Made by a program: the position numbers and the translations under genes. Below are positions 4,340-38,475 of a stretch of 38,727 nucleotides of DNA, piece after piece (within the stretch, counting starts at the first letter, position 1; every line of letters begins with the position of its first letter). The notes under the pieces are model-generated. The model ran no database searches and was not told the origin of the DNA. It saw nothing but the letters and a program-made list of their open reading frames with translations. The stretch spans positions 1-38,727 of the IMG/VR virus record IMGVR_UViG_3300030116_002574. The stretch is one strand, 5' to 3'. The stretch is from a virus (taxonomy: Duplodnaviria > Caudoviricetes).

Positions 4340-4981
4340 ATGGTACATAGAAAAGCTCCGTCTCTGGAAGAAGCTACAGAATTCTTCACAAAAGACCCAG
4401 ACAAGATGTTGCAAGCGTGGGCTGATGAATGGGGTGTAACACACGAAAGAGTTCGTCAACTTAGAATACAATCTGGTGTGCCTCAACGTGGTGCTTACAA
4501 TGAAGAAACCGCAGAAACTATTCTTGAAGTAATTAGAACAGGTCGTGGTGGTTTAACTACACCTAGAACTTATGAAGAAGTAACAATAGGTTTAGAAAAG
4601 TTTAAAACTTGGATGGAGGAAGAAGAAGGTTTACGTGAACGTGTAGAAGAAGCACAAAAGCAAGCTCTTAAAAGTTTAAAAGACCCGATTGAAAAAGAAT
4701 GTAAGTATTGTAGAGAATGGAAACCGGTAGAAGATTTTAAAAGAACACAAAAGTATCTAGATGGTTTTACTAAGTTTTGTATTATGTGCCTAGATGTAAT
4801 TAAACAGAAAAAAGAAGAACTTGGTGATGAAAAATTAAAATTATGTATTTCTTGCAGGAAAGAAAAGAAAACATCAGATTTCAGTAGAAATCCTAATTCA
4901 AAAGATGGTTTTAAAATATTTTGCAAAGATTGTCATAAGAATAATAAAAGAAAGATAAGAAGACGAAATGCCCAGATATGA
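4340..4981 (+). CDS. Putative DNA-binding protein: sigma-region-4-like HTH, second helical domain, two C4 zinc-finger repeats
   Basis: LQAWADEWGVTHERVRQL resembles sigma70 region 4.2. CKYC...DGFTKFCIMC and CISC...DGFKIFCKDC are two copies of one Zn-finger unit. Confidence 0.65.
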   Translation: MVHRKAPSLEEATEFFTKDPDKMLQAWADEWGVTHERVRQLRIQSGVPQRGAYNEETAETILEVIRTGRGGLTTPRTYEEVTIGLEKFKTWMEEEEGLRERVEEAQKQALKSLKDPIEKECKYCREWKPVEDFKRTQKYLDGFTKFCIMCLDVIKQKKEELGDEKLKLCISCRKEKKTSDFSRNPNSKDGFKIFCKDCHKNNKRKIRRRNAQI

Positions 4982-5213
4982 ACATCAGTGTATTATGCAC
5001 CAATGTTACTTTGAGTTTGAAGTAACTTATTCTATACACGAAGACCCTTTAATCAAATGCCCTAAGTGTGAGTCTGATACTAAAAGACTTATTGGTAAGA
5101 ATGTTATGTTTGAAACACCAATAGATGTAGATTGGGAGAAAGACCCAAGTAACTTAAGTGAGAAATCATTTAAACAATATGAAAAAGCAAAGAAGATAAA
5201 GTATAGATGGTAA
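4968..5213 (+). CDS. FmdB-family zinc-ribbon protein
   Basis: MPRYEHQCIMHQC-YFEFEV...CPKCESDTKRLI matches the MPxYxYxC..C...FE...CPxC...R pattern. Confidence 0.85.
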   Translation: MPRYEHQCIMHQCYFEFEVTYSIHEDPLIKCPKCESDTKRLIGKNVMFETPIDVDWEKDPSNLSEKSFKQYEKAKKIKYRW

Positions 5214-6391
5214 AAGACGAAGGTACTGAAGAAATAATACAGGGAGCTAATAGATACTTTTTATCGTTCAATTCGTACTCTGTAAACCCAGACCCACTAC
5301 ATCAAAAAAGTTATGTTGTAAATCTCTATGTTCCTTTAAGAGAGCTTTCTTTTAACAGACCGGGTGTAAAACAGATTATACCTACACATCCAGACTGTAA
5401 TGTTTTTGACATTGACAAAGAAGTAATAGAGAATGTAAAGCTATCTATAAAAGAAGAGTTCGGGGAGAAAGGTTACTTTCATTTAAAAAATCAAGGTATA
5501 ACTATATATGCTGACGCAGTAGATATATCAGAAGGTGTAAACAGATGTGCTATAAAAATAACTGATGAAAAAACTCAAGGAATTATTGATGGTGCTAATT
5601 TATATAATATTATTCGTACTATGTCTAAAGAAGACTTGGGTAATAAGGTTTATGTAAATGTCAAAATAATTACAGGCCCAGAGCCAAAAGTTATACCAGA
5701 AATAATTACAAGTCTTGACACAAAGATAACTAACAAAGTAGATGTATCAATTGACGTTAAGGAACTCGACTGGCTAAAAAAAATAGTTGATAGTACTGAA
5801 TACGTAGATAAAATTGATTTAGTAGATGTGCTTTGCTATATAAACCTATTTAGGAACAATATATACGATACAGACGCAACTAATCAACCAACTATCTCTT
5901 ACTGGAATAAACAACAAGTTATTGATACATACAAGAGTGACCCAGATATATTTAAAGCTTTTATACCAATAATCAAAGACATACTGTATCTACACGATTT
6001 TATAAATACAAAAACAATAGAACTATGGCCATCAAAGTTAGGTAGCTTAGCAAGTTTAGGTCTAGCTTTACCTTACAAACAAAAAGCCTATGAGTTTCCA
6101 ATGTTGGGTAAGAAAGAAGATTATAAGTTTCATGAAGCTATAACTTGTGTTTTACTTAATGGTTTTAGGTGCTTTGTAATATTCAATCTCGACAATCGTG
6201 CTCAGTGGTCAAAGGATTTTTCCAAGATAGTTAAGATTTACGAACAAGTCTGTGTAGATTTGTTAAACATAGTAAAAACATACAACAAAGAAACTGGATA
6301 CAATCCTCACGTTCTAGGAAAGAACAATATGCTTTATAGCATTATTTATAAGGAAATGATGATGGGAGATATGCTTAACCAATTTTTATAA
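5207..6391 (+). CDS. AIPR-family (ParB/DGQHR-like) protein, apparently degenerate
   Basis: FHLKNQGITIYAD, GIIDGANLY, VNVKIITG and C-terminal LLNGFRCFV resemble AIPR motifs (F..xNxGITI, IxDG/NGxxT, VxVxIxxG). Confidence 0.7.
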   Translation: MVKDEGTEEIIQGANRYFLSFNSYSVNPDPLHQKSYVVNLYVPLRELSFNRPGVKQIIPTHPDCNVFDIDKEVIENVKLSIKEEFGEKGYFHLKNQGITIYADAVDISEGVNRCAIKITDEKTQGIIDGANLYNIIRTMSKEDLGNKVYVNVKIITGPEPKVIPEIITSLDTKITNKVDVSIDVKELDWLKKIVDSTEYVDKIDLVDVLCYINLFRNNIYDTDATNQPTISYWNKQQVIDTYKSDPDIFKAFIPIIKDILYLHDFINTKTIELWPSKLGSLASLGLALPYKQKAYEFPMLGKKEDYKFHEAITCVLLNGFRCFVIFNLDNRAQWSKDFSKIVKIYEQVCVDLLNIVKTYNKETGYNPHVLGKNNMLYSIIYKEMMMGDMLNQFL

Positions 6392-15400: not shown

Positions 15401-16662
15401 TGGCTAATGACCATCAAATCACAATAGGACATTTAAGTTTTACATCTCCTCAATCATTGTCTCATAGCTCAATGGACGGCAGTAGAGATTTAACTCTTAG
15501 CGGTGTTATAGCTCATACTAATGCTACTGGTTTAGATGTAGATGAAGCTAAGTATATTAGAGATGAATTAGAATCTATGGCTAACTATGGACACTTTCAT
15601 CCATTTAGTTATACAGGTGATACCACACTTAAAGGTTATGTAAGAGTTAACTCTTCTGATGTTAGTGTAAATAGATATGGTGGTGCAGGTATTAGTTACA
15701 ATATATCACTAGCATATTTAGGCAACCCCGGTGAAATACGTTTTGAGTCACAGTTCTCTGGAGCAATATTAGAAAACAACCACAGTATTAGTTCTTCAGA
15801 TTCGCAGTTCTTTTCTCCACCAAGTGGTGCATTCTCAGTACACATACCAGCAGTTGGAACAGGTACTTCTCCTTCTGTTGAAGAAAGAATAGCTGAACAT
15901 GGTACATCAACTACTACTATGCAGTTCTTCTCTGGTAGTAATATTAGAGACAACAATATAGAGTTTGAATGTAATCCGGATGATTATTTAAAAGGTGCAG
16001 TAAAGATATCTACAAACGGCAAAGTAAGAAATGGTTTATTAAGTCCTAACCTTAACGTTGACCAAGCAACTATAGAAAATGGATTAGTTAAATTTACTTT
16101 GACTAATAGCAATACACAATCAAGATTTACAGTTTCTCTTTGGGAGAATGACGACTATCGTAGCGTAAAAGAATTCGCAGTTAGTAAAGGTTCTTCCGAA
16201 ACAGAATGGGATGGATGGAACACAGTACAAATAATTAAAAATTATGCTGAGTGTGGAACCTTAAGGTTTACTTCACAAGCAAATACTGATGGTAGTGGTA
16301 GGTTAACGTTTGATGTATCGTTACGAAGAGGCGCGAGATTTTTTAGTATCGTGATAAACTCTTATGGTACAGCCGATGAAATACATTTAGAGAGAACCAC
16401 AGCAGAGGCTAGTACTGCTGGGACAGGTTATATAGTATCTTCAAGCAACGACTCTGAAGGAAACTATTTCATCTTGGGCTCTCCAACTACCTTTAGTACT
16501 GACTTGACTAATGGTGGGATACACCTTACGGGAACTCAGATGAAAGCTTTTCTAGGTTATGTTCTAGATGGCTCTTCAGCAGCTGGACAAAACACAGCAG
16601 ATAATATGCGTGACGCATATCTGGACAGCATGTATGAGTACGTAAGGATAATTAAGTCATGA
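15400..16662 (+). CDS. Minor tail protein (distal tail/baseplate hub position)
   Basis: First large gene after tape measure; Ser/Thr/Gly-rich beta composition; GAGGTG RBS. Confidence 0.7.
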   Translation: MANDHQITIGHLSFTSPQSLSHSSMDGSRDLTLSGVIAHTNATGLDVDEAKYIRDELESMANYGHFHPFSYTGDTTLKGYVRVNSSDVSVNRYGGAGISYNISLAYLGNPGEIRFESQFSGAILENNHSISSSDSQFFSPPSGAFSVHIPAVGTGTSPSVEERIAEHGTSTTTMQFFSGSNIRDNNIEFECNPDDYLKGAVKISTNGKVRNGLLSPNLNVDQATIENGLVKFTLTNSNTQSRFTVSLWENDDYRSVKEFAVSKGSSETEWDGWNTVQIIKNYAECGTLRFTSQANTDGSGRLTFDVSLRRGARFFSIVINSYGTADEIHLERTTAEASTAGTGYIVSSSNDSEGNYFILGSPTTFSTDLTNGGIHLTGTQMKAFLGYVLDGSSAAGQNTADNMRDAYLDSMYEYVRIIKS

Positions 16663-19600
16663 GTGTAAACGAAAAATTAATGGCTCCGGGTACATTTAAT
16701 GTGTACCTTAATTTAGAGACAACACCTAATTCAGTTTTAAATACAATAACTCCTTGGGGTAATATTGTATTGACTTCTACTCGTGTAAATCCTACAGAAT
16801 TTACTGACGCACAACTTAGAAATATGGCTAGGTATGTTGGTATTGTACAAAACCAAACAATTACAGAAGAAGGTATAGAAGTTGGTGGTATAGGTATTCT
16901 TGGATATCTAGGTGATACTGATTCAAGAGGAATGGTATTAGCTAGAAATGCAGGAGTTGGTGCTGTTAGGTCTTACAGTAGAGACACTTTAGACGATGTT
17001 TTAGATAGAAGTACATCAACACCTTATGGTATTTTACGAGGTGAAGACGCTACACAGAAAGCAGTAAGAAAAGGTACAGTTGTAGAAGTACAGTACGATG
17101 ACACAGTTTTACTTTTAAATTACGAAGGTAGCAATGGAGATACAACTACTACTGATGGTTCTACATTTACATCTAATCAAGTTATAACTTTTAGTGGTAC
17201 TGCGGATATATCTACAGACCAAGCAAAGTATGGTAATACAAGTCTTCACTTAACTACTGATGGTTTTGTTACTGTAGCAGATAGACCAGAGTTAGATTTA
17301 ACTTATCAAGAATTTACAGTTGAGTGGTGGGAGTATAGAACTTCTTCAAGTGGTAATCCTACTGTTTGGGCAAGAAACAATGACACATACTCACCTTGGA
17401 TATTTGGTAAAGCTGTTGATGGAAATAATAAAGCTTTTATTACTCACGATGGTAATGGGTATGGAACAGATGAAGATTTAAATATAGATATGGGTTCTAT
17501 TGATTTAAACCAATGGAATCACTTTGCAATATCTCATAAAGGTGACCAGTTTAGAACTTTTAAAAATGGTGTAATACAACAAACCGATACAAGACCAGAA
17601 TTATTTGTCAGAGTTAGTTCTGATTCTTTACAGATTGGTAAAGGACAAGACGGCAACTTCTTCGAAGGATATCTTGATGGAATGGTTATTACTAGAGGTA
17701 ATGCAAAGTATTGGGACGCATTTACTCCTAGTACTTCTGCTCCTACAGCTACTACAGCTAACAAAACATACACAGGTAAGCATTACATGGAATCTGCTTA
17801 CAAAGCTCTTAAAACAATTTGTACAACTCTAGACGCAGAATTTAAAATGCAGAATGACGGAACTATCGATGTAGGACCTCGTACTTCATTATTTACAGGT
17901 CACGAAGATAATGAACCTACTGGAATGATTGTAAGAAGATTGTCTGGTTTAGACGCAGGTGTAAAAGGTTATTCTGGAGCAGATTTAAAGACAGAGTTTA
18001 ACGCAGAAGATTTTGTTAGTCGTGTTGAATTAATTGCTTCGCAGTATGGTAAAGAAATAAACTTAGGACAAGCAGACGCAAAAGATATACCTTATAAAGA
18101 TTTACACGGAAATGAATTAGAAAGAATACAGATATTATCTGAGAACGAAGTACCAGACTCTATGCGTGATATTAGAGCAGAGGCATACTTAAATGAATAC
18201 AACAAGGTTCAGAAAACATTATCTGTAGGACTAGAAGACTATGACCTATCTGGAGATATAGGCGTAGGTGATGTTATCTTTGTCTTCGACCCAGAAGTTG
18301 GTTTTGAAGATACACAGGCTGACGCAACATTAGAAAACAGAGATAGGCACGAGATAGCTTATCAAGGACAGATTTTAAATCCTATAAAGATTCGTGTTAT
18401 GGGATTATCATTCCCTATCACAGACAGTATGGGTGTGTTTTATAGAGACAGTAACGGAAACTATACAGACTTAACTGATTATGTATCTTTCGAGTCTGGT
18501 ATAACACAAGTAGAAGTTGGCTCTACAACTCCTAACATAAACGAAGACCTAAGAGCTTCAGCGGCAGTTATTGCTGTTGGAGGTACAAATGAGTTTACAG
18601 TACCAGACGCACCTACAAGTTTTGCTGCTGCTAGTGGTACTTATCAAGACGGAGCAGGTAGGCCTTTTGCTTTTGCTAAATTAACTTGGAACGAACCTAC
18701 AAACACAGATGGCTCAAGAATTACTGATGGTAATATGTATCGCGTTAGATACAGACAAGTTACAGATGTTGACGGAAACAATCTTATTGATAGTAACGAC
18801 AATCAAGTTACTGACTATGAGTATTTAACAGTAGAGTTTGGTACAACTGCTGTAGTTATAAAAGGTTTAGGACCAAATAACACTTATGAGTTTGGTGTTG
18901 CATGTATTGACAACTCTGGTTTCTCCGGAGGCTTTGCTGTTATTACTGCTTCACAAATGCCTGCTGACGCAACTATACCACCAGAACCTACTGCACCTAC
19001 AGGAAGCTTTGGTTCTATTGCGTCTAGTGCAACTAAAGTTCAAATTACACATAAGCTAGGTGCTGCAAAAACTGTTGCTGGTGCAGTTATATCTAGCCCT
19101 ACAAACTTTTCTTTACCTAGAGACATAGACCACTTAAATGTTTATCGTGGTACTACATCAAGCTTTACAATCAGTTCTACTAACTTTGTTGGTGAGATAG
19201 CAGCTAGAGCTGGTCACATTGACGGAAGTATTCCTGCAATAGGAACATTTGCTGCCTCAACAGCTGGTACTGCTTACTATAGAGTTACAGCAGTTGACGT
19301 AGCTGGTAATGAGTCAGACCCTTCTACCGCAGTATCAGTAACAGAAGAATTAATCTCTACAGCATTTATTGATGACGCAACAATTACCACAGCAAAGATT
19401 GGTGACTTAGCAGTTACAGACGCAAAGATAGATACACTTACTGCTGCAAAGATAACAGCAGGAACTATCAGTGGTAAAGAAATAATTATAGATACAGATA
19501 GTGCTACTGACCCATCAAACCCTGTACTAGGAACAATAAGGAGTAGCGGTTATGTAGCTGACAATGCTGGTTGGATAATTAAATCTGATGGCTCTGTTGA

Positions 19601-21260
19601 GTTTGAGTCTGGAAAATTTAGAGGAGATATAACAGGTGCAAGCGGAACATTCTCTGGAAACTTATCTGCTGCTGGAGGTACTTTTACAGGTAACTTAAAT
19701 GCAAGTCAGATAAACGCAGGTACATTTAGTGCGGACATAATTAGTGGTGGAACAATAGATGGTTCAAGTATAAATCTAGGTAGCGGAACATTTACAGTAG
19801 ATACTAACGGAGCTATGGTTGCTTCATCTGCAACTATTACAGGAAATATAAATGCTAATGCTGGAAGTATCGGTGGAACAAGTATAAATGCAAATACATT
19901 GGAAACTTCAAACTTTTCTAACACAGCAGGTTATCAATTAGATTCAACTGGTGCAACTTTTCATAATGTCACTATTACAGGTACATTGTCTGGTGCAAGC
20001 ATTGACGGAACTATAGATGGAACAGTAAGGACTGCTTCTGGAAATACATACATCGAATTAGCTAGTGATAATGGAAGTACAATGTCATTTGTTAAAAGTG
20101 GTGGTGCCTTTGGAACTTTACAAGATAACAGTGGATTTTTTGCTTTACAAAGCGGTGTCAACGCAAGTGGTCTTGTCTTAAGCTCTGCTGTTGGGCCTAC
20201 TAAAATAGTTACTAATGCGGGTCTAGATGTTGGAGGAAACATTGGAAACTCTAATATGGTACTTCTTGGTGGTAACAGTCCATTCTGGGGTAGCGTTCCT
20301 GCTAACGCTGGTGTAACTTCATTAACAAGTTTAAATTCAGCAATTGTATTAGGTAGTAACACCGGTGGTGTGACTATGAACTTTAACCCTAGCAACTTAG
20401 ATGATACTCATGACCATGGAACTTCTAATGCTCCGGGTGGTAGTTATGATGGTGATAATCATGGTAACAACCACGGAGTAAACTTTAGTAATGTTTTAAC
20501 TAACGCTACTCACTCTCATAATACATCAGCAGTAAACTCTTTAGCGACAGCAGCTTCATCAAGATTAAATTTAAGTAATAACTCTGGTGCTATATTAATA
20601 AATCACTTAGATACTGACCATCCTAACTTTGGTACTGGTAATGGTAACGGAAATGGTAATGGTAACTCAAACGTTTCAGCAAACCACACACACGACTATG
20701 CTGCTAACTCTCATGGACATGGTAGCTCATATTTATCTAACTCACACACTATTGGACACGCTGCACAAGGTGCAACAGCACATAATCACCCTTACTCTTC
20801 TAGCGGTCATGGTCACGGAAATACTTACGCAAGTTTTAGCCACTTTCATATAAACCCATTAACTCACGATTCAAGATTATTAAATATAAACGCTAATACT
20901 GTTCCGGGACTCAATGTAGTTAATAGATTAAATCCTGTTACTGCTAATTTCTCTGCTGCTTATTTAGAAAGAGCAAAGGCAAAACAAGGTGGAATTGATG
21001 AATTAGACGGAGTAACTTATAGGCTTACACAACAAGATGTTAAACAAGCACTTACAGACGAAGGCTTAGACCCGTCTACAATAGCAATGATTATTGAAGA
21101 TGTTACTTATGCTAAGAATGATAAGCCGGGATTAGACGAAGACGAACCTATGAAAGGTTTAATGGACGGAGAGATAGACGCAATTTTAGTACAAGCAATC
21201 AAAGATTTATCTGCTAAGATAGATTTACTAGAAGATAGAATAACAACCTTGGAGGGTTAA
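16659..21260 (+). CDS. Tail tip / central fibre protein: LamG-like domain, FN3 repeats, beta-helical stalk, His-rich segment, C-terminal S74-like chaperone domain
   Basis: EFTVEWW...WNHFAI...FEGYLDGMVITRGNAKY (LamG); PDAPT..LTWNEP..YEFGVACIDNSG and YYRVTAVDVAGNESDPS (FN3); ITTAKI/AAKITAGTI repeats; DSRL...GLNVVNRLNPV...LVQAIKDLSAKIDLLE. Confidence 0.88.
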   Translation: MSVNEKLMAPGTFNVYLNLETTPNSVLNTITPWGNIVLTSTRVNPTEFTDAQLRNMARYVGIVQNQTITEEGIEVGGIGILGYLGDTDSRGMVLARNAGVGAVRSYSRDTLDDVLDRSTSTPYGILRGEDATQKAVRKGTVVEVQYDDTVLLLNYEGSNGDTTTTDGSTFTSNQVITFSGTADISTDQAKYGNTSLHLTTDGFVTVADRPELDLTYQEFTVEWWEYRTSSSGNPTVWARNNDTYSPWIFGKAVDGNNKAFITHDGNGYGTDEDLNIDMGSIDLNQWNHFAISHKGDQFRTFKNGVIQQTDTRPELFVRVSSDSLQIGKGQDGNFFEGYLDGMVITRGNAKYWDAFTPSTSAPTATTANKTYTGKHYMESAYKALKTICTTLDAEFKMQNDGTIDVGPRTSLFTGHEDNEPTGMIVRRLSGLDAGVKGYSGADLKTEFNAEDFVSRVELIASQYGKEINLGQADAKDIPYKDLHGNELERIQILSENEVPDSMRDIRAEAYLNEYNKVQKTLSVGLEDYDLSGDIGVGDVIFVFDPEVGFEDTQADATLENRDRHEIAYQGQILNPIKIRVMGLSFPITDSMGVFYRDSNGNYTDLTDYVSFESGITQVEVGSTTPNINEDLRASAAVIAVGGTNEFTVPDAPTSFAAASGTYQDGAGRPFAFAKLTWNEPTNTDGSRITDGNMYRVRYRQVTDVDGNNLIDSNDNQVTDYEYLTVEFGTTAVVIKGLGPNNTYEFGVACIDNSGFSGGFAVITASQMPADATIPPEPTAPTGSFGSIASSATKVQITHKLGAAKTVAGAVISSPTNFSLPRDIDHLNVYRGTTSSFTISSTNFVGEIAARAGHIDGSIPAIGTFAASTAGTAYYRVTAVDVAGNESDPSTAVSVTEELISTAFIDDATITTAKIGDLAVTDAKIDTLTAAKITAGTISGKEIIIDTDSATDPSNPVLGTIRSSGYVADNAGWIIKSDGSVEFESGKFRGDITGASGTFSGNLSAAGGTFTGNLNASQINAGTFSADIISGGTIDGSSINLGSGTFTVDTNGAMVASSATITGNINANAGSIGGTSINANTLETSNFSNTAGYQLDSTGATFHNVTITGTLSGASIDGTIDGTVRTASGNTYIELASDNGSTMSFVKSGGAFGTLQDNSGFFALQSGVNASGLVLSSAVGPTKIVTNAGLDVGGNIGNSNMVLLGGNSPFWGSVPANAGVTSLTSLNSAIVLGSNTGGVTMNFNPSNLDDTHDHGTSNAPGGSYDGDNHGNNHGVNFSNVLTNATHSHNTSAVNSLATAASSRLNLSNNSGAILINHLDTDHPNFGTGNGNGNGNGNSNVSANHTHDYAANSHGHGSSYLSNSHTIGHAAQGATAHNHPYSSSGHGHGNTYASFSHFHINPLTHDSRLLNINANTVPGLNVVNRLNPVTANFSAAYLERAKAKQGGIDELDGVTYRLTQQDVKQALTDEGLDPSTIAMIIEDVTYAKNDKPGLDEDEPMKGLMDGEIDAILVQAIKDLSAKIDLLEDRITTLEG

Positions 21261-21506: not shown

Positions 21507-22262
21507 ATGAAATTTAGCTTGGGAGGCAAGCAATTCATTGAATTTGCTACAGATGTGGAGGGACTCGAACAGGTAGCTCCAGTACAAAAATCTACACACT
21601 TTACACCTAGATGGTTTAAAGATATGAAAGATTATATACCACAAGAACCTACACCGGATGGAAGTGTTCCCGGTAGGTATGGTAAATCAGAAGAGACAGC
21701 TAAGAAGTGGTCTGGTGGAACTGTGAAACGTTGTCCTGCAATAATAGACTTGATTACAGAGGGATTTATTATACCAATGTGGTGTGACTTTTTATTACAG
21801 AGAGATAATCAAGTACTTGAATGGGACAATAAAAACTTTCCTTATGGTATTGAGTTTCATGGTAATTCACAAATACACAATTGGAAACTAAAGAAGAATG
21901 ATTTTAGAGAAGGTGTAAAGTTTAATAATCCTTGGAGAATATATACACCACCCGGATATTCAGTAATGTTTATGGCTCCTTACTATCAATTTGAACAAAG
22001 GTTTACAGTATTGCCGGGAATAGTAGAAACAGACAGTTATCATCACGTAAATTTTCCTACAATAATTCACACAAAGAAAGATACAATTATAGAAAGAGGT
22101 ACACCATTTATGCAGGTTATACCTTTCAAGAGAGACAATTGGAATCTTGATGTGTCAACAATGACACCAGAACAAGTTAAAAAAGATACAGCACAAAAGT
22201 TAGAATTATCTACAAAATTCAAGAACTCATATAGAAACATAACCCGAAGATTAACTTCCTAA
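21507..22262 (+). CDS. Conserved phage protein, DUF6065-like (predicted dUTPase-like beta fold)
   Basis: TVKRCPAIID..GFIIPMWCD, KFNNPWRIYTPPGYS, LPGIVETDSY, RGTPFMQVIPFKR; paralog of 36833..37645. Confidence 0.6.
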   Translation: MKFSLGGKQFIEFATDVEGLEQVAPVQKSTHFTPRWFKDMKDYIPQEPTPDGSVPGRYGKSEETAKKWSGGTVKRCPAIIDLITEGFIIPMWCDFLLQRDNQVLEWDNKNFPYGIEFHGNSQIHNWKLKKNDFREGVKFNNPWRIYTPPGYSVMFMAPYYQFEQRFTVLPGIVETDSYHHVNFPTIIHTKKDTIIERGTPFMQVIPFKRDNWNLDVSTMTPEQVKKDTAQKLELSTKFKNSYRNITRRLTS

Positions 22263-30539: not shown

Positions 30540-30869
30540 ATGGCGGTATATACAGCAGCAGAGTTAAAAGAAGTAACTGCACTTACGACATCTGAAGCAG
30601 AAGTTTTCAGTAATTCTAATAAGTGCATTATTAAACAAATAATGCTAGCGAACTATACAGCAACTGACAGAACAGTAGAAATCAAGGTAATTCCTTCTGG
30701 GGATTCAACTGGTGACCAACATATTATTTTTGGTGACATAACTGTTCAAGCAAACACAACTACAGTTATTGACTTAGCTATGGTTATACCTGCTTCTGCT
30801 TCAGTAGCTGCTAAATGTTCAGCAGCAACATCTGTAAATATACATGTTTCCGGCGTAGAGGTAACCTAA
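30540..30869 (+). CDS. Small beta-rich virion-associated protein
   Basis: AGGAG RBS; IIKQIMLAN...VQANTT...VNIHVSGVEVT pattern resembles small proteins of aquatic phage fibre clusters. Confidence 0.7.
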   Translation: MAVYTAAELKEVTALTTSEAEVFSNSNKCIIKQIMLANYTATDRTVEIKVIPSGDSTGDQHIIFGDITVQANTTTVIDLAMVIPASASVAAKCSAATSVNIHVSGVEVT

Positions 30870-32185
30870 TGTCTGACATACAGATACCAGAGCCAGTCTT
30901 TTTGGACAGGCTTGGTGGTGATGAAATATATGGTTTTGGACAAGATGGAAATGTTACCTTAACATCTAATACAACTCTTAGTCGAGACATGTATTACAAC
31001 AATCTAACAATAAACTCTGGTGTTACATTAGATACAAATGGTTATCGTGTCTTTGTAGCTGGTACATTAGCTTTTGCAGATTCAACTTCTAAGATTGGTA
31101 GATTTTCAAATAAAACAACAGCAGGAACTCTTAAAGGTGGTTTCGCTAAAGGTGTTGCCGCTACAGATACTTTAGGTGGTAAGTCTGGTGCTCAAACCAA
31201 CTCAGCACATGACGCTAATCAATTCTTTGAAGGTGAAAACGAAATGTTTAACCTATCTGTTGCTATAGCAGGACACGCTATTGACGCTGATACAGGTAAC
31301 TATAAATTCGTAGGCGGAGGTTCTGGAGGGGCTGACGGAACTACTAATGCAGCTTCTGCTGGAGCAGATGGAGGAGACTCTAACTGGGCTGACTACCAAG
31401 TAGTTGGAGCAGACGGAGGTAAAGGTGCTACAGGAAATGCAGCGACAGCGGGTACAGGAGCAGTTGGAGGTGGAGTAGTTATAGTTTTAGCAAAGACTGT
31501 TACTGGTGACGGAACAGTAAGAGCTGATGGTGATGACTCTACAGCTGGTTCAGACGGCAATGCTGGTGCTCCAGCTCCAGACGCTTCTACACCGGGAAAC
31601 TCAGTTCCGGGTAATACAAATACTCATCCGGGAAATAACTATTCCTATGGTTATAGTTATGGATACTCTTATGGCTATAGCTATCCGGGTAATACAAACA
31701 CACATCCGGGAAATAATTATTCTTATAGTGGTTCTAATCCTCATACACATTATCACTGGCACCCAGTTTATTTAAATAACTATTCAACAGGTTCTTATCA
31801 TTATCATTACAATCACTGGCACCCATATACAAACTATGGGTCCAACCCAACGAACTATGGTTCTAATCCAACTAACTATGGTGCAAACTATGGAGCAAAC
31901 TATGGTGCTAACTATGGTTCAAACCCAACTAACTATGGTACAAATCCTACTACAACAAACCCTACTGTCTATCATCCGGGTGGAGCTGGAGGAGCTGGGG
32001 GAACAGCTACTTCCGGTTACAACGCGGGTGGAGGAACAGTTGTATTTGTAACAGGAACTAAACCATTACCATCTGGATTGACACTTGCTGCTGCCGCTGG
32101 AACTTCTGGAACAGGAACAGCTGGAGCAGGAACTGTTGTAACAGTATACAATATAGACGCAGACGACACGGACCCGGGAGCTTAA
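30869..32185 (+). CDS. Glycine-rich adhesin-like protein with repetitive Tyr/Asn/His insertion (438 aa)
   Basis: Start re-called to ATG 30869 (TAATG overlap, GAGGT RBS). YGFGQDGNV, YNNLTINSGVTL, GGGVVIVLAKTVTGDGTVRADG and GGGTVVFV glycine-rich motifs. Confidence 0.8.
   Translation: MSDIQIPEPVFLDRLGGDEIYGFGQDGNVTLTSNTTLSRDMYYNNLTINSGVTLDTNGYRVFVAGTLAFADSTSKIGRFSNKTTAGTLKGGFAKGVAATDTLGGKSGAQTNSAHDANQFFEGENEMFNLSVAIAGHAIDADTGNYKFVGGGSGGADGTTNAASAGADGGDSNWADYQVVGADGGKGATGNAATAGTGAVGGGVVIVLAKTVTGDGTVRADGDDSTAGSDGNAGAPAPDASTPGNSVPGNTNTHPGNNYSYGYSYGYSYGYSYPGNTNTHPGNNYSYSGSNPHTHYHWHPVYLNNYSTGSYHYHYNHWHPYTNYGSNPTNYGSNPTNYGANYGANYGANYGSNPTNYGTNPTTTNPTVYHPGGAGGAGGTATSGYNAGGGTVVFVTGTKPLPSGLTLAAAAGTSGTGTAGAGTVVTVYNIDADDTDPGA
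31592..31975 (+). repeat. Mirror-spaced PGN / NPT peptide repeat array
   Basis: Five PGN motifs spaced 5,7,19,7 aa, a His/Trp core, then five NPT motifs spaced 7,19,7,5 aa. Confidence 0.92.
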
Positions 32186-32186
32186 T

Positions 32187-32852
32187 ATGCCTATAACAGA
32201 ATACGGAGATGGAGCAATACCATCAGACTTTGAAAGTTTCGACGTAATACCAGACTCAGTTTATGGTTCTGGTATGGATGGAAACGTACAGATAACATCT
32301 AACACAACTCTTGCTAGAGATATGTTTTACAATAACCTAACTATTGACCCCGGTATTGTTTTGAATACAGCAGGATACAGAGTATTTGTAAGAAATACTT
32401 TAGCTATGGCTGCAACTTCATCAAACCAAGGTGATACAAAAATTGGTAGAGTTGGTGGCGTTTCAACTACCGGTACTTTAAAACCCGGAGGTCTTGCGGC
32501 CGTCACCAATTCTCTTGGAGGAAATGGTAACGGATATACTGCTACTGCACCAGACGAAGGTGCTGAATATTTCAATCATCCAGACTTAGCTGTACAAGGC
32601 GTTGTCGTCCACGCTGGACAAACCACACCAGACCCACTAATGGGCGGAGCAGGAGACTCTGTCAATTATGGTGGAGGAGTTGTTGTAGTATGTGCTAGGA
32701 AAATACAGGGATACGGAACAATAGAAGCTAGTGGTGAAACAACTACTGGTGGTGGAGTTATATTTATAGTTTCACAAGATATTCCACTAACAGGCGTAGT
32801 AACAGACGTAACAGGTTACGCCGCAGGTACAGTCAAAACATTTAAGGTTTAA
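32187..32852 (+). CDS. Glycine-rich adhesin-like protein, compact paralog of 30869..32185
   Basis: Shares YG.G.DGNV..TSNTTL.RDM.YNNLTI..G..L.T.GYRVFV..TLA, KIGR, GTLK.G, LGG and GGGVV; lacks the insertions. Confidence 0.8.
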   Translation: MPITEYGDGAIPSDFESFDVIPDSVYGSGMDGNVQITSNTTLARDMFYNNLTIDPGIVLNTAGYRVFVRNTLAMAATSSNQGDTKIGRVGGVSTTGTLKPGGLAAVTNSLGGNGNGYTATAPDEGAEYFNHPDLAVQGVVVHAGQTTPDPLMGGAGDSVNYGGGVVVVCARKIQGYGTIEASGETTTGGGVIFIVSQDIPLTGVVTDVTGYAAGTVKTFKV

Positions 32853-33746: not shown

Positions 33747-34214
33747 ATGCGAACCATATTCTACATTCCCGAAGGGGAAGATGTAGAAAACTACAAGGAA
33801 GAATGGTATGAAAAAACTAGTGAAGTACATACCGGAATATCAAAAAATATAGAACAATATATTGATGACCCTTCTGTAGCTCAGTTCGTAAACATACCAG
33901 AATTTAAACACATGCTAGCTCCAATTAATGCTAGTAATAGCGAATACTTCCAAGTAGGTTATGTTGATGATTTTGCAGATAGAGATAACTTACCGCAATA
34001 CATTGTAGAAGTATGGAGTAAAAATTTAGATAATCCTAGTGACCCACAAGATAAAGTAGACAACTGGATTATGCAATTTGATTTAGGAGCTAATTTCTTT
34101 CATACTGACCATGTCCGTTTAGATGTAGGTTGGTATGACTTAGTCGTAATGAATGAAGATAAAGAAATAGATACTCACGAAATATCTGTATATGAAAGTT
34201 ATGAAGAAGAATAA
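33747..34214 (+). CDS. Hypothetical acidic protein
   Basis: GGAGG RBS; 155 aa. Confidence 0.7.
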   Translation: MRTIFYIPEGEDVENYKEEWYEKTSEVHTGISKNIEQYIDDPSVAQFVNIPEFKHMLAPINASNSEYFQVGYVDDFADRDNLPQYIVEVWSKNLDNPSDPQDKVDNWIMQFDLGANFFHTDHVRLDVGWYDLVVMNEDKEIDTHEISVYESYEEE

Positions 34215-34914
34215 TTTATGGAAAAAGGTAGAGCCTAAACAAGTAGTCACAGGAGTTATATCTTGGGAGAACTGTTTAGAAATACCAGATGGAATTATTG
34301 ATTTAATGAATCAAGATGTAGATAACTGGATTCCTAAAATTACAGATGAAATGATTGAAGAGAATGATTCATACATTACTGTCAAGAATGCAAACGGGCC
34401 TATAAGATTTAATCCAGAACTAGAATTTACAACTGATGAAGCTAAAACATTTTTTAAACAAGTACAAAAGAATGCGCTAGATAAAATAGCTAGTTATTGT
34501 GATATGTTTCCCGATGTAGCTAAAGAAATAAACTGGATGGAGAACTGGCAATACATAACTTACAGACCACCTAAACACATGACATATCATAGTGATAATC
34601 ATTCTGTTAGAAACCCTAAGACAGGAGAACATTACTTAAATCCTTACTTTAGAAGAATTACTGCTTTGACTTATTTGAATGATGACTTCAATGGTGGGGC
34701 TTTAGATTTTAGATATTTTGATGAAAAACCATATAAACCTCCAGCAGGAAGTGTAGTTATTATGCCTAGCTCTTATGTTTATTCACACGGGACAACACCA
34801 TTACTTAATGGTAGAAAAGCGGCTTTCTTAGTATCCTGTGCAAGCCATTACGATGTTGCTAGTATTAAAGAAGATGGAGATTTAATTGAAGCTAAGAGGA
34901 GAGAAATAGTATGA
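34192..34914 (+). CDS. 2OG-Fe(II) oxygenase, prolyl-4-hydroxylase-like
   Basis: HSD...RRITALTYLNDDFNGGAL.F...KPPAGSVVIMPS..VYSH.TTP...GRK. Start could be ATG 34201. Confidence 0.92.
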   Translation: MKVMKKNNLWKKVEPKQVVTGVISWENCLEIPDGIIDLMNQDVDNWIPKITDEMIEENDSYITVKNANGPIRFNPELEFTTDEAKTFFKQVQKNALDKIASYCDMFPDVAKEINWMENWQYITYRPPKHMTYHSDNHSVRNPKTGEHYLNPYFRRITALTYLNDDFNGGALDFRYFDEKPYKPPAGSVVIMPSSYVYSHGTTPLLNGRKAAFLVSCASHYDVASIKEDGDLIEAKRREIV

Positions 34915-35588
34915 ATAAGTCAATGGGTGTAGTAGAGATATATGAAGATTTCTTTACTGGTACTCAAGCTGAAGACATAATTAAAGCAGCTGAAGCAATA
35001 GATAAAGCTAATGTAGATTTTGGTTTTGAAGACGCAACTATTGGTAAAGGACATAAAGGTGGAGAAGTAAGAAGTAACCTCTTAATGTCTCTATCTGCAA
35101 TTGCACAATATCCTAATGAAGGTAGGTCTTTTAGAGAAGCTATCAAAAATGGTACAGACAATCATATACATGATATTAAAAATATATGTGATTTGATTCA
35201 AAGAAGATTACAGGATTATGTTAATGACTACACTAAAAGATACGAGTTTCCTATATTGTTTGACGAGGGTTATCAGTTATTAAAATATAGAGGTGGACAG
35301 CAATACAAAGGTCATTCTGATTATGCACCGCATATACCTAGATACCTCTCAGCATTGATACTTTTAAATCCACAGGATTATGAAGGTGGAGGAACATACT
35401 TTCATCATTTTGAAGAAATGGTAAAACCAGAAAAACCTTCTTTAGTATTATTTCCTAGTAACTACGCTTATGCACATCAAGCTATGCCTGTTATTAGTGG
35501 AACTAAGTATGCAATAGTAACTTGGTTAGGTCATCCTATGGAGATTGAAGATATGCCTCCAATGTATAAACAAGGAGCACCTAGATAA
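34911..35588 (+). CDS. 2OG-Fe(II) oxygenase, prolyl-4-hydroxylase-like
   Basis: YQLLKY, HSD, LSALILLN..YEGGGTYF, LVLFPSNYAYAH...PVISGTKYAIVTW. Confidence 0.93.
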   Translation: MNKSMGVVEIYEDFFTGTQAEDIIKAAEAIDKANVDFGFEDATIGKGHKGGEVRSNLLMSLSAIAQYPNEGRSFREAIKNGTDNHIHDIKNICDLIQRRLQDYVNDYTKRYEFPILFDEGYQLLKYRGGQQYKGHSDYAPHIPRYLSALILLNPQDYEGGGTYFHHFEEMVKPEKPSLVLFPSNYAYAHQAMPVISGTKYAIVTWLGHPMEIEDMPPMYKQGAPR

Positions 35589-36145
35589 TGAACGCTGTTA
35601 TTATTACTGATTTATTTAAGGGTAATCAACTAGAAGAACTTCAATCTTGGTTAGATTTAGAAACTCCATACGAAGATAAATCTAAATGGGCAAAAAGTCC
35701 CGATGGTACTCACATGGTAAAAATGTGTAATGAATTAAATACTTATCACACAGTTTTAACAGATAAAGCAAGAGATGTTTTTCAAGTGCATAACATACTA
35801 CCTACTTTCTCAACAATAAACTGGTATGAACCTTACGTTATAAAAGATATACATTACGATAGTGGTCCCGTTGAATATACAATACTATACAACTATTTTT
35901 CAGAACATCCGCTAAAATTAAAATACAACAACGAAGAAATATTGTTAGAACAAGGAAGCGCAGTAGCTTATCAAGGTTCTCAATTCGAACACACAGTAGA
36001 AGGTGTTGAAGGCGTAAGTATAAGATTAAACTTTAACTTTGCTACGCCAGATAATTATTTCTTTGTATTAGGTAATCATACGGCTAATGGTTTTGATTTT
36101 CCATCTGGCCGACCAGAGAACGAGGTAGAAGTAAATTGGCTATAG
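35588..36145 (+). CDS. 2OG-Fe(II) oxygenase-like protein (phage LxPTY/F family)
   Basis: ILPTFS...WY...HYD...LEQGSAVAYQGSQFEH gives an HxD...H triad. Confidence 0.75.
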   Translation: MNAVIITDLFKGNQLEELQSWLDLETPYEDKSKWAKSPDGTHMVKMCNELNTYHTVLTDKARDVFQVHNILPTFSTINWYEPYVIKDIHYDSGPVEYTILYNYFSEHPLKLKYNNEEILLEQGSAVAYQGSQFEHTVEGVEGVSIRLNFNFATPDNYFFVLGNHTANGFDFPSGRPENEVEVNWL

Positions 36146-36831
36146 TAGAAAAAACATTTAGAGTAAATAACACAACTATAAGTTATGATGATTCGGATAT
36201 TTACGAATCAAGAGTTGAAGACTTAGGACATATAAATCCTTCTTTAGAATTTTGGTTGTTTCATAACAGAGGTTTATACGATAACGCTTTAGTTGTTGGT
36301 GCAGGATTTGGTTTATCATCAAAGCTACTTGCAGACTGGGGAACAACTGTTACATCTGTCGAACCACAGTCAGATAGGTTTGCTTTATTAGAATCTAATG
36401 TTCCAACAAGTACAAACATAAATAAAATGTGTGGTGCGTCTGCTGGTACTTCTGATTTAGTATATTTTGAAGATAATAAATCTGGTGGTGCAATAAATAA
36501 AACTATGGGAGACGCTAGTGAATCCGTAGAAGTAATTACAGTAGATAGTCTTGATTTAACACTTGACCTTATGCTTGTTTACGCAAACGGCAAAGAACTA
36601 GATGTCATTGATGGTGCTAGCGATACTATTGCAAACAATACAGATATGAAAATTATCTTAAGATGGATACCAGACTTGTTTGATGACATAGACGCTGCAA
36701 TAACAAAATTAAAGAGTTATGGTAAGACAATAAAAATTATTCACTGGGAAGAAGGGGACACTATATCTTACAATGATGTTAGTGATGATATCTTAAAGGC
36801 AGTTATGTCTGCTGACTTAATAATGGAGTAG
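36136..36831 (+). CDS. FkbM-like SAM-dependent methyltransferase
   Basis: VVGAGFG motif I, VTSVEP...FALLESN, VEVITVDSL, GKELDVIDGA..TI; TTG start with GAGGT RBS. Confidence 0.8.
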   Translation: MAIVEKTFRVNNTTISYDDSDIYESRVEDLGHINPSLEFWLFHNRGLYDNALVVGAGFGLSSKLLADWGTTVTSVEPQSDRFALLESNVPTSTNINKMCGASAGTSDLVYFEDNKSGGAINKTMGDASESVEVITVDSLDLTLDLMLVYANGKELDVIDGASDTIANNTDMKIILRWIPDLFDDIDAAITKLKSYGKTIKIIHWEEGDTISYNDVSDDILKAVMSADLIME

Positions 36832-36832
36832 T

Positions 36833-37645
36833 ATGAAAAAATGGTGGGAGGCCAAAGAATATAGTAGGTTATTGGAAGTAAAGAAACACAAAGTCGGTGA
36901 CGATAAAATCTTGTTTCTTACTAATAGCCCAGAGTATGTGGATTTAGCTCCACCTAAACCTGCAAGTGAATTTGTACCAGCGTATTACAAACATTTACAA
37001 AGAGAATGGTCTGAGATGAGAGGGGACGATGACAGCTGGCATTCAGTTCCTTACAAAGACCATTCAATGAAAAAATGTCCTACTGTAAAAGATATAATGT
37101 TTAGTGGATATATTATTCCTTTATGGATAGACCTTAAAATACATCACGATGATAAAGTAGGTTTTAATTGGTATAACAAACACTCTGACGAAGAGACTAT
37201 TACATATCATAAGCCACAATCAATAGGTAACTTGCCTATACAAAAAGGTTCGTTTGATACTGCTATGAAGTTTGCTAATCCGTGGGATATAGTTACACCT
37301 CCGGGTTGGTCTGTACTTATAACACAACCTTGGTATCACAGACATTGGGAAATAGAAATATTCCCTAGCATTGTAGAGACTGACTCTTATCATCAGATGA
37401 ATATACCTTTCCTGTATCACGGAACAGGAGAAAGAATATTTAGACAAGGTATGCCTTTGATTCAAGTAATTCCTGTTAAGAGAGATGGGTGGGGCTTGGA
37501 TAATTACGAGGCTAGAAAGATGGATGAAGAAGAAAAAGAATACTATGCTAAGAGTAGAGCTGCCGAAAGAACAAGGCAAAATGGTTTTTATCGTTGGTTG
37601 ACCCAACAGAATAAAAGAAGATGGAAAGATGAGGGAATATTATGA
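36833..37645 (+). CDS. Conserved phage protein, DUF6065-like; paralog of 21507..22262
   Basis: SMKKCPTVKD..GYIIPLWID, KFANPWDIVTPPGWS, IVETDSYH, QGMPLIQVIPVKR. Confidence 0.6.
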   Translation: MKKWWEAKEYSRLLEVKKHKVGDDKILFLTNSPEYVDLAPPKPASEFVPAYYKHLQREWSEMRGDDDSWHSVPYKDHSMKKCPTVKDIMFSGYIIPLWIDLKIHHDDKVGFNWYNKHSDEETITYHKPQSIGNLPIQKGSFDTAMKFANPWDIVTPPGWSVLITQPWYHRHWEIEIFPSIVETDSYHQMNIPFLYHGTGERIFRQGMPLIQVIPVKRDGWGLDNYEARKMDEEEKEYYAKSRAAERTRQNGFYRWLTQQNKRRWKDEGIL

Positions 37646-38475
37646 AATGTCCAGTACCTAGAAAAGGTTATAAGATACCAAAGCTAACTGATATATGGTC
37701 TAAAAAATTAAGCACCATACATAAAGATATGCCCACTGTAGCTTTTACTTTACCTAGACCTAATCCACAATGGGGACAGCTAGAAAACAATGAAGCTAGA
37801 ACACATCCTCCAATTAATTTTAGAAACCCACAAAAGTTTATAAAAGCTCCTAATGGTTGTGTATCTACACAGTTTATGCGTAATAGAATGTACGAAGTTT
37901 ACTTTCCATGGTCACACGTAAAGATATCTTTATCACAGAATCAGTTTAGAGATGAAGTAGATAGATTTGCTGGGTGGGATTATAAAGCACATTTCTATGG
38001 AGCAGTAAAGCACTATGGACCATTTGATGACCTAATTATGGAAGAAAAAGAAGCATGGGGCTCTCCAGACAAACCTGTAATGCAGATATCTTTACCTATT
38101 ATGTTGTTTACTGATGATGAAGAAGTTTGGATGGATGTTATCCCAAGTGATAGGAATACTGGACAAAACTTACCTGTATCTACTATTCCGGGATTTATGC
38201 CTATATATTCATGGTCAAGAGGTTTGTCTTGGGCATTTGAATGGACTGATATGAACAACTTAGAATGTAATTTAAATCACGATACTGTAATGTTTAACTT
38301 GCTATTTAGTAAACCTGTAAAGATAAAGTACGTAGAATGGAACGAAGTATTTAGCAAAACTTGGAATATGATTAGCCAATCTTCTGTCAATAGAAGAGAT
38401 ACTAATATGCTTTACCCAGACGCAGTAGAAAGAAGACCAAAGAAATTATTGCAAAAATGGATGTTCACAAAATAG
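37642..38475 (+). CDS. Conserved phage hypothetical protein, possibly a distant member of the same fold
   Basis: GCVS...YEVYFPW, IPGFMPIYSWSRGLSWAFEW; ATGA overlap. Confidence 0.55.
   Translation: MKCPVPRKGYKIPKLTDIWSKKLSTIHKDMPTVAFTLPRPNPQWGQLENNEARTHPPINFRNPQKFIKAPNGCVSTQFMRNRMYEVYFPWSHVKISLSQNQFRDEVDRFAGWDYKAHFYGAVKHYGPFDDLIMEEKEAWGSPDKPVMQISLPIMLFTDDEEVWMDVIPSDRNTGQNLPVSTIPGFMPIYSWSRGLSWAFEWTDMNNLECNLNHDTVMFNLLFSKPVKIKYVEWNEVFSKTWNMISQSSVNRRDTNMLYPDAVERRPKKLLQKWMFTK

What the first reader, a model, noticed from the sequence alone, without database searches (positions are those of the whole stretch)
31592..31975. Mirror-symmetric repeat spacing: a possible out-and-back protein needle with a His/Trp tip
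Seen: the outbound arm is PGNSV|PGNTNTH|PGNNYSYGYSYGYSYGYSY|PGNTNTH|PGN (unit lengths 5,7,19,7). The return arm is NPTNYGS|NPTNYGANYGANYGANYGS|NPTNYGT|NPTTT|NPT (7,19,7,5). The two arms have different sequences but exactly mirrored lengths, including four 4-aa units on each side (xYSY versus NYGx). Between them lies HTHYHWHP-VYLNNYSTGS-YHYHYNHWHP (8 His). Repeat copies differ at synonymous positions, so the pattern looks maintained at protein level. Inference: a long antiparallel hairpin in which each PGN registers with an NPT, so a duplication in one arm must be matched in the other. That would be a length-tunable stalk presenting a metal-stabilised receptor-binding tip, conceptually like the T4 gp37 needle but built from simple repeats.
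Basis: partly seen in the sequence, partly recalled or inferred. Interest (0 to 1): 0.9.

Follow-up and report, generated by a model that had tools for sequence, protein, structure and literature searches.

The report
Phage stalk with complementary repeat code
A marine phage tail-region protein has two repeat arms that stay equal in length across its relatives and nearly always place one repeat type opposite the other, even when the types swap arms, so the arms likely zip together like a base-paired hairpin into a thin stalk whose histidine tip probably binds metal and may contact the host.

Summary
In 74 of 79 distinct close-family inserts the outbound and return arms keep a fixed length difference, while the return arm ranges from 40 to 67 aa. 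Arm length changes at least 36 times on the base-domain tree.

The match is motif by motif. PGN/YSY-type units face NPT/NYG-type units, and like faces like at 6 of 1953 positions against 30% in cross-homolog controls. The two types swap arms between lineages, and so do the two His motifs. The register projects onto an Asn-Asn apex, placing His opposite His. The arms do not pair as nucleic acid.

The stalk is an insertion in a predicted beta-helix base; a stalk-less paralog lies next door. AlphaFold does not resolve the stalk (pLDDT 23-45), so pairing rests on covariation. Oligomeric state, metal binding and receptor binding are inferred only.

It works like the T4 gp37 needle (128-aa insertion; median here 133) but is not a member. 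The scan noted this gene family before as a candidate hydroxylase substrate; a word search for the mirror code found nothing.

The parts
30869..32185 (+). Stalk-bearing protein, 438 aa, in the tail/fibre module of an uncultured HK97-type long-tailed phage
   Evidence: 242 homologs found, 120 listed; no Pfam, PHROG or PDB sequence family
30920..31582 (+). N-terminal half of the base (aa 18-238): predicted parallel beta-helix rungs with glycine-rich excursions, ending in the outgoing G-x-x run and APD anchor
   Evidence: AF2 pLDDT 78-93 over aa 31-80 and 151-240; generic beta-helix matches, best Z 8.3
31583..31741 (+). Outbound arm (aa 239-291, 53 aa), PGN/xYSY-type units
31742..31822 (+). His/aromatic tip (aa 292-318): HxHxHxH outbound, variable loop with N303-N304 apex (31775-31780), HxHxxHxH return
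   Evidence: low-confidence AF2 strands 295-302 and 305-312
31823..31972 (+). Return arm (aa 319-368, 50 aa), NPT/NYGx-type units
31973..32185 (+). C-terminal half of the base (aa 369-438): returning glycine-rich run and last predicted beta-helix rungs
32187..32852 (+). Stalk-less paralog, 221 aa: same base, a few residues where the stalk and its glycine-rich supports are inserted; candidate partner
   Evidence: 55% identity over 104 aa; alignment; best-hit label in 73 of 75 loci, and the other two carry a second short family member
30540..30869 (+). 109-aa conserved upstream gene whose stop overlaps the start codon; candidate adaptor (inferred)
   Evidence: present in 54 of 75 loci
34192..35588 (+). 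Two 2OG-Fe(II) oxygenase genes that travel with the family; possible modifiers of the stalk (untested)
   Evidence: Pfam PF13640; at least one within the fetched flank in 64 of 75 loci

Best explanation
The gene encodes a protein whose two repeat arms keep matched lengths and face complementary motif types, so it likely folds into an out-and-back antiparallel stalk on a predicted beta-helix base, probably as a three-chain, six-stranded needle on the virion with a histidine tip that would bind metal and a variable apex loop that may touch the host.

Mechanism. Shown in sequence: (1) The 130-aa insert sits in one loop of the base, and the paralog closes that loop with a few residues. (2) Type-a units (PGNNYSY, GYSY, PGNTNTH, PGNTV, PGNNYSYTS) face type-b units of the same length (NYGSNPT, NYGA/S, NYGSNPT, NTNPT, TTNYGSNNT), whichever arm carries them. 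(3) In 27-residue tips the register runs without a shift to an N-N/N-S apex; in the window it places H294/H313, H296/H311, Y295/Y312 and W297/Y310 opposite each other.

Inferred: (4) The facing units pair physically as antiparallel strands, about 0.9. Selection would then remove one-arm indels and keep matched ones, which makes length and polarity modular. (5) It is a virion appendage, about 0.8. (6) Three hairpins braid into a gp37-like needle in which the four HxH doublets per chain hold up to four metal ions, about 0.5. (7) The apex loop is a receptor-contact element, about 0.5.
For: Matched lengths: 74 of 79 distinct inserts; return arm 40-67 aa in 17 length classes; permutation null mean 9.6, max 21 of 58, against 54 observed. 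At least 36 length changes, 14 polarity changes and 3 tip-type changes on the base-domain tree of 78 rows, counted on the 73 symmetric rows. L087 and L125 differ by a one-codon indel in each arm. Motif facing in 72 distinct arm pairs: xGN faces Asn 393 of 398, YSY faces Asn 410 of 419, like faces like 6 of 1953. In the 64 pairs that allow a control, cross-homolog pairs of equal length give 63%, 53% and 30%. Cross-arm mutual information is 0.86 against 0.32, max 0.41. Polarity: 42 PGN-out, 12 NPT-out, 19 mixed. The arm register falls exactly on the N-N/N-S apex in 24 of 24 27-residue tips, with a fixed offset of 1-4 in each other tip class. AF2 places strands at 239-241 and 367-369 and a tip strand pair at 295-302 and 305-312 with the same index sum, 607 (low confidence). 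Arms hold 0.3% charged and 1.3% aliphatic residues. There are 53 different apex loops between fixed His motifs. The gene lies behind the fibre gene in a tail module. Precedent: T4 gp37 D11 is a 128-aa insertion with 50-aa stems and a 28-aa tip (PMC6957217, Introduction read); the median insert here is 133 aa.
Against: AF2 gives the stalk pLDDT 27-45 and 23-37, with no continuous strands, so no model shows arm-to-arm contacts. Five of 79 inserts are asymmetric (P0007, P0009, P0012, P0047, L086). L086 is a clean chimera of two symmetric relatives. P0009 and P0012 have return arms the same length as, and identical or similar to, those of symmetric relatives. Assembly error cannot be told from real viable variants for any of the five. 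Covariation cannot tell pairing within a chain from pairing between chains. The eight-His count is built into my parsing pattern and is not independent evidence of conservation; 4 records were dropped as truncated or with a variant anchor. His-free relatives show that a His tip is not needed for the stalk. No virion proteomics, cultured phage or host exists for this family.
Confidence: 0.55

Rival explanations
1. The pairing code is the same, but each chain forms a single two-stranded beta-ribbon on a monomeric gp38-like adhesin, or on a mixed oligomer with the stalk-less paralog. Tyr ladders would stabilise it, and cross-strand His pairs within one chain would form the metal site.
For: The register puts His opposite His and aromatic opposite aromatic within one chain. 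The stalk-less paralog is adjacent in essentially every locus, which suits a hetero-oligomer. S16 gp38, a beta-helix with glycine-rich extensions, is a single chain on a trimer (PMC6851490, passages). The bovine ultralong CDR H3 is a single beta-ribbon stalk with YxYxY (PMC5994613, passages).
Against: A free two-stranded ribbon of 40-67 residue pairs (inserts up to about 400 aa in distant relatives) would be expected to be floppy; this is my structural judgement and comes from no call. The bovine CDR H3 is at most 70 aa in all. Pam3 gp24, a glycine-rich adhesin resembling gp38, is a trimer (PMC9608196, passages).
Confidence: 0.3
2. The stalk is a paired rod, but its main job is to display post-translational modifications put on by the neighbouring 2OG-Fe(II) oxygenases and related enzymes (a shield or coat). 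The His tip would be structural and not a receptor-contact site.
For: At least one 2OG oxygenase gene lies within the flank in 64 of 75 loci. The arms are made of Asn, Tyr, Ser, Thr and Pro. Earlier scan notes e1-6088756 and e1-5871296 proposed this reading (unchecked, not independent support).
Against: Display alone does not need strict motif-by-motif complementarity or a variable apex loop. No chemistry was tested. It is compatible with the best explanation as a second layer.
Confidence: 0.12
3. The mirror pattern comes from nucleic-acid pairing, a mutational mechanism or assembly, and the protein region is disordered low-complexity sequence.
For: AF2 confidence in the stalk is low. The region's RNA folds better than shuffles (z -2.7).
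Against: The RNA hairpins are local, within each arm. Arm-to-arm Watson-Crick complementarity is at most 35% at any offset in 40 genes. No inverted repeat joins the two arms. Third positions are close to saturation while the amino-acid motifs stay fixed. Contigs from runs of four studies carry the arms. Disorder cannot explain reciprocal swaps or matched one-codon indels.
Confidence: 0.03

Closest known systems
T4 gp37 long-tail-fibre needle, domain D11 (Bartual et al. 2010, not read; seen as described in PMC6957217 and PMC9659904)
   Same: An out-and-back insertion into a globular domain; similar size (128 aa with 50/28/50 stem-tip-stem, against 130 aa here, median 133); HxH motifs; distal tip.
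   Different: No sequence similarity. The base is a predicted beta-helix, whereas gp37's D10 has the collar fold. The arms here are low-complexity repeats with a two-type complementary code, variable in length and swappable between arms. The His motifs cluster next to the apex; gp37's seven irons lie along the needle. Trimer and iron are shown for gp37 and unshown here.
S16 gp38 adhesin (PDB 6F45) and Pam3 gp24 (PMC6851490, PMC9608196, passages)
   Same: A beta-helix (S16) or TNF-like (Pam3) domain whose turns extend as glycine-rich runs, with variable distal loops proposed to bind receptor. Here the stalk leaves between two glycine-rich runs that come off a predicted beta-helix turn.
   Different: Their distal loops are short turns; here one loop is 114-164 aa. 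No sequence match. A polyglycine lattice was not verified in my model.
Bovine ultralong CDR H3 stalk-and-knob (PMC5994613, passages)
   Same: An ascending and descending beta-ribbon stalk of variable length with a YxYxY motif, carrying a binding tip. Analogy only.
   Different: Unrelated, much shorter, with a disulfide knob and no two-type repeat code.
His-rich fibre-type proteins with halogenase/oxygenase cassettes (earlier scan notes e1-5727989, e1-5734242, e1-6109938)
   Same: His-rich relatives in my searches share the base, the insertion site and the adjacent short paralog. I did not check that they are the same proteins as in those notes.
   Different: Inserts with 10-64 His show no PGN/NP register (0.29 against 0.16 facing pairs; 1 of 59 with three or more).

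Membership tests
T4 gp37-type iron needle | Out-and-back insertion with stem-tip-stem layout | tested here: met
   Insert of 53/27/50 aa in one loop of the base, absent from the paralog; covariation. Met at sequence level.
T4 gp37-type iron needle | HxH motifs | tested here: met
   H292/294, H296/298, H311/313, H316/318.
T4 gp37-type iron needle | Sequence homology to gp37 or lambda-type needle families | tested here: not met
   No Pfam hit for any of 43 members; no PHROG hit for the window protein; no PDB sequence hit.
T4 gp37-type iron needle | Needle inserted in a D10 collar-fold domain | tested here: not met
   The confident part of the model is a parallel beta-helix (best rows Z 8.0-8.3, rmsd 2.0-4.0, 81-124 aligned).
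T4 gp37-type iron needle | Homotrimer with a six-stranded antiparallel needle | not testable with these tools
   Needs SEC-MALS or a solved structure.
T4 gp37-type iron needle | Iron bound by His from three chains | not testable with these tools
   Needs ICP-MS, XRF or anomalous scattering.
gp38 / Pam3 gp24 glycine-rich adhesins | Beta-helix or TNF-like core | tested here: met
   Predicted beta-helix, pLDDT 78-93 in the core blocks. The matches are generic and Z 8.3 is near the tool's background of 7-8.
gp38 / Pam3 gp24 glycine-rich adhesins | Polyglycine-II lattice extending from beta-helix turns | tested here: inconclusive
   Glycine-rich runs at aa 150-202, 221-237 and 370-389 lack regular secondary structure, and most are modelled with high pLDDT. 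BFVD top rows are collagen-like proteins with TM 0.2-0.3. Coordinates could not be inspected.
gp38 / Pam3 gp24 glycine-rich adhesins | Sequence homology to gp38 | tested here: not met
gp38 / Pam3 gp24 glycine-rich adhesins | Receptor binding through variable distal loops | not testable with these tools
   The apex loop is variable (53 forms in 79 inserts); host unknown.

The most novel reading that the evidence does not exclude
This is a natural protein strand-pairing code. Two short motif alphabets pair like complementary bases (PGNNYSY with NYGSNPT, GYSY with NYGA), in either direction and in any order, to build a new kind of rod whose length, polarity and tip can be read from sequence and reprogrammed. 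Phages would use it to set how far a metal-loaded tip reaches.
Probability: 0.5. Interest if true: 0.88.

Novelty: new variant of a known kind. Interest (0 to 1): 0.74.

Why it matters
Compensatory change is the classic proof of RNA helices. Here a protein shows the same logic at the level of whole repeat units, including reciprocal swaps between strands, with dozens of natural variants as a ready-made test set. If the pairing is physical, it gives a readable rule for a thin, length-tunable protein rod, and a fold that AlphaFold2 could not model here. It also adds a marine phage family with a compact His cluster to test the proposal that phage fibres carry iron in seawater (PMC11705849, passages). 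Finally, it supplies a geometric frame for the stalk that earlier scan notes proposed as the substrate of the adjacent oxygenases.

Tried and rejected
Complex prediction: a three-copy job on aa 196-438 with alignment A1 returned 'no answer', score 0.00, own fold uncertain, controls not folded. It is used neither for nor against any reading.

Folding: two AF2 jobs left the stalk unresolved. Foldseek on the PDB gave no hit at E<=0.001. The wide VIA search with the stalk-centred model gave no match at Z>=2, which means nothing for a model of mean pLDDT 49. S16 gp38 and Pam3 gp24 were not among the 50 rows shown for the full model, which excludes nothing.

Sequence searches without a useful hit: Pfam, PHROGs and PDB; cultured phage records; prokaryote genome contigs. 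ESM Atlas gave only unnamed viral clusters at 0.9 or more, and Mtd_N and G8 clusters at 0.80-0.85 as leads. The capsid search did not point to a host (best 35.5%).

Rejected: nucleic-acid pairing between the arms. Not supported: selection for extra synonymous divergence between copies, since third-position differences for four of five units are at or below the codon-usage expectation and GYSY is only slightly above it (0.57 against 0.52). The upstream start at 30815 was not used, because homologs align from the 30869 Met. The residue-shuffle null was too weak and was replaced by displaced-centre controls. Two rows mis-anchored were corrected.

Literature: eight searches listed no paper whose title or abstract start describes mirrored, complementary repeat arms in a phage protein. 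Most listed papers were seen as listings only, no supplements were read, and the library lacks most subscription journals.

Full report
OBSERVATION. The ORF 30869..32185 encodes 438 aa. PGN starts at aa 242, 247, 254, 273 and 280; NPT starts at 326, 333, 352, 359 and 364; every mirrored pair sums to 606. Eight His lie in aa 292-318. Contigs from four runs of four studies match the arms closely, for example X3 31411-31825 with 2 other letters and 31819-32136 with 3, and X6 31505-31741 with 6 and 31734-32056 with 1. X1 may be the source sample, and no listed piece spans both arms. The 14 runs holding at least half of the words are all marine or seawater metagenomes from 8 studies.

CONTEXT. The window is the whole held assembly. 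It is a structural module of a long-tailed phage: prohead protease, HK97-type capsid, tail tube, tape measure, tail tip and a 2076-aa fibre. The gene follows the fibre and two small genes. It is followed by a 221-aa paralog (55% over 104 aa) that lacks the insert and its glycine-rich supports, then by 2OG-Fe(II) oxygenases and weak FkbM and DUF6065 matches. In the 75 viral loci fetched (80 of 175 relatives kept, 75 distinct), the paralog label occurs in 73, and the other two carry a second short family member. The 109-aa gene occurs in 54 and an oxygenase in 64. No cultured phage record or prokaryote genome holds a relative, so the host is unknown.

LENGTH COVARIATION. I parsed the close family from the 120 listed of 242 proteins and from loci L001-L149. 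This gave 137 overlapping records and 79 distinct inserts; 4 records were dropped (3 truncated or broken off, 1 with a variant anchor). Outbound minus return length is +3 in 47 type-A and +2 in 27 type-B inserts, 74 of 79, with return arms from 40 to 67 aa in 17 classes. On the first 58, permuting return arms gave a mean of 9.6 and a maximum of 21 matches against 54 observed. A tree of the base alone (78 rows; one lacked its N-terminus) needs at least 36 length changes among the 73 symmetric rows. Recombination makes that count approximate. L087 and L125, with 292 of 300 identical bases upstream, differ by one codon in each arm.

EXCEPTIONS. Five inserts are asymmetric, each an isolated leaf among symmetric kin. 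L086 is 300/300 identical to L125 upstream, and 81/81, 168/168 and 150/150 identical to L009 in tip, return arm and downstream, with the joint in a DNA tract both parents share. It is a chimera, by assembly or recombination. P0009 has the return arm of P0006; P0012 has a 67-aa return arm like that of L087; both lack a block of outbound units. By inspection, P0007 has a 9-aa unit twice and P0047 lacks 14 aa. I could not check reads for these, so they remain evidence against a strict rule.

THE CODE. In 72 distinct symmetric arm pairs, 393 of 398 xGN motifs and 410 of 419 YSY motifs face an Asn at a fixed position, and like faces like at 6 of 1953 labelled positions. For the 64 pairs in length classes with more than one member, arms paired across homologs give 63%, 53% and 30% (500 derangements). 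The commonest partners are PGNNYSY with NYGSNPT/NYGSNNT, GYSY with NYGA/NYGS, PGNTV with NTNPT, and the 9-mer PGNNYSYTS with TTNYGSNNT. The rule is independent of direction: 42 genes have PGN-type out, 12 have NPT-type out, 19 are mixed, with at least 14 changes on the tree. The tip also comes both ways round: HxHxHxH out and HxHxxHxH back, or the reverse. Some tip loops carry a matched three-residue insertion on each side. The P-to-P register of the arms (index sum 607 in the window) lands exactly on the N-N/N-S apex in 24 of 24 27-residue tips, and at a fixed offset of 1-4 in each other class. It sets H294/H313, H296/H311, Y295/Y312 and W297/Y310 opposite each other. That Asn-Asn favours a two-residue beta-turn is my recollection and comes from no call.

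NOT NUCLEIC ACID. Arm-to-arm complementarity is at most 35% at any offset in 40 genes. The RNA fold (z -2.7) is made of local hairpins. Copies within a gene are near synonymous saturation.

WIDER FAMILY. A profile search finds 1874 cluster representatives at E<=0.001, many through the base only (150 listed). Among 42 distant inserts with at most 2 His (62-413 aa; some are base-only proteins), facing xGN/NP pairs at the base-anchored centre average 2.38 against 0.77 at displaced centres. Nineteen have three or more, and 12 beat every displaced centre. Among 59 His-rich inserts the figures are 0.29 and 0.16, and 1 of 59 has three or more. So the register extends to part of a His-free subfamily and is absent from the His-rich one.

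STRUCTURE. AF2 models the base with pLDDT 78-93 in its core blocks and the stalk at 27-45. A stalk-centred job gave 23-37, with tip strands 295-302 and 305-312. The base matches parallel beta-helices generically (bactofilin Z 8.3, rmsd 2.0, 81 aligned; Mtd Z 8.3, rmsd 4.0, 124 aligned), near the tool's background. The models agree with the register at base and apex but do not show the stalk.

MECHANISM AND COMPARISON. I commit to a virion appendage whose arms pair as antiparallel strands under a two-type code (about 0.9), most likely braided three at a time into a gp37-like needle with metal at the HxH doublets (about 0.5). T4 gp37 D11 is an insertion of 128 aa with stems 882-931 and 960-1009 and tip 932-959 (PMC6957217: Introduction and passages). 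It is a six-stranded antiparallel needle (PMC9659904: passages) of about 150 by 25 A (PMC3004832: passages). The inserts here are 114-164 aa, median 133. It works like gp37 but fails membership on homology and base fold. The base resembles in layout the beta-helix with glycine-rich extensions of S16 gp38, a single chain (PMC6851490: passages), and Pam3 gp24, a trimer (PMC9608196: passages), so both oligomeric states have precedent. The main rival is a single-chain ribbon, as in the bovine CDR H3 stalk (PMC5994613: passages), perhaps in a mixed oligomer with the paralog. How reciprocal swaps arise is unexplained. Recombination between co-infecting relatives at shared tracts is one route, stepwise substitution another.

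NOVELTY. Eight literature searches listed nothing on complementary mirrored repeat arms; most hits were seen as listings only and subscription papers are largely missing. Earlier scan notes saw this gene family as a candidate substrate of tailoring enzymes; a word search for the mirror code returned none. Verdict: real and strongly constrained, a new variant of the out-and-back fibre needle with an apparently undescribed pairing code. Interest 0.74.

Noticed in passing
window 20409-20849 (+), in ORF 16659..21260: The tail-tip protein carries seven HxH motifs in its C-terminal fifth, so this phage has a second, more conventional candidate metal-binding fibre segment. The last ~120 aa look like an intramolecular chaperone by eye (recalled, not tested).
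   Followed up: partly
window 31645-31686; L087 and L009 outbound arms: The (GYSY)n tract is near-palindromic in DNA and forms a local RNA hairpin of about 16 bp. An identical tract of over 40 nt is shared by otherwise divergent genes, which suggests exchange of arm segments between phages.
   Followed up: partly
window 31569-31579 and 31981-31991: A perfect 11-nt inverted repeat brackets the insert. It may be a by-product of the Ala-Pro and Gly-Ala codons; conservation was not checked.
   Followed up: no
L020:5001-6872: A distant relative has a 269-aa insert built from a different, charged repeat alphabet (Arg/Glu/Asn-rich units), possibly a second pairing code.
   Followed up: no
P0104, P0109, L050, L059, L061 and others: A subfamily has 10-64 His in the same insertion site (59 distinct inserts) and no PGN/NP register; whether these are also out-and-back stalks is open.
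   Followed up: partly
P0124: A 1764-aa protein with an N-terminus resembling a pilin-type leader (recalled motif) holds three copies of the base-domain motif without a stalk, suggesting the base also occurs in cell-surface proteins.
   Followed up: no
window 33747-38475 and 21507-22262: A block of 2OG-Fe(II) oxygenases with weak FkbM-like and DUF6065-like matches follows the pair of genes and is conserved in close relatives.
   Followed up: partly
window 4340-6391: Endonuclease-like, zinc-ribbon and AIPR-domain genes interrupt the head-tail connector genes.
   Followed up: no
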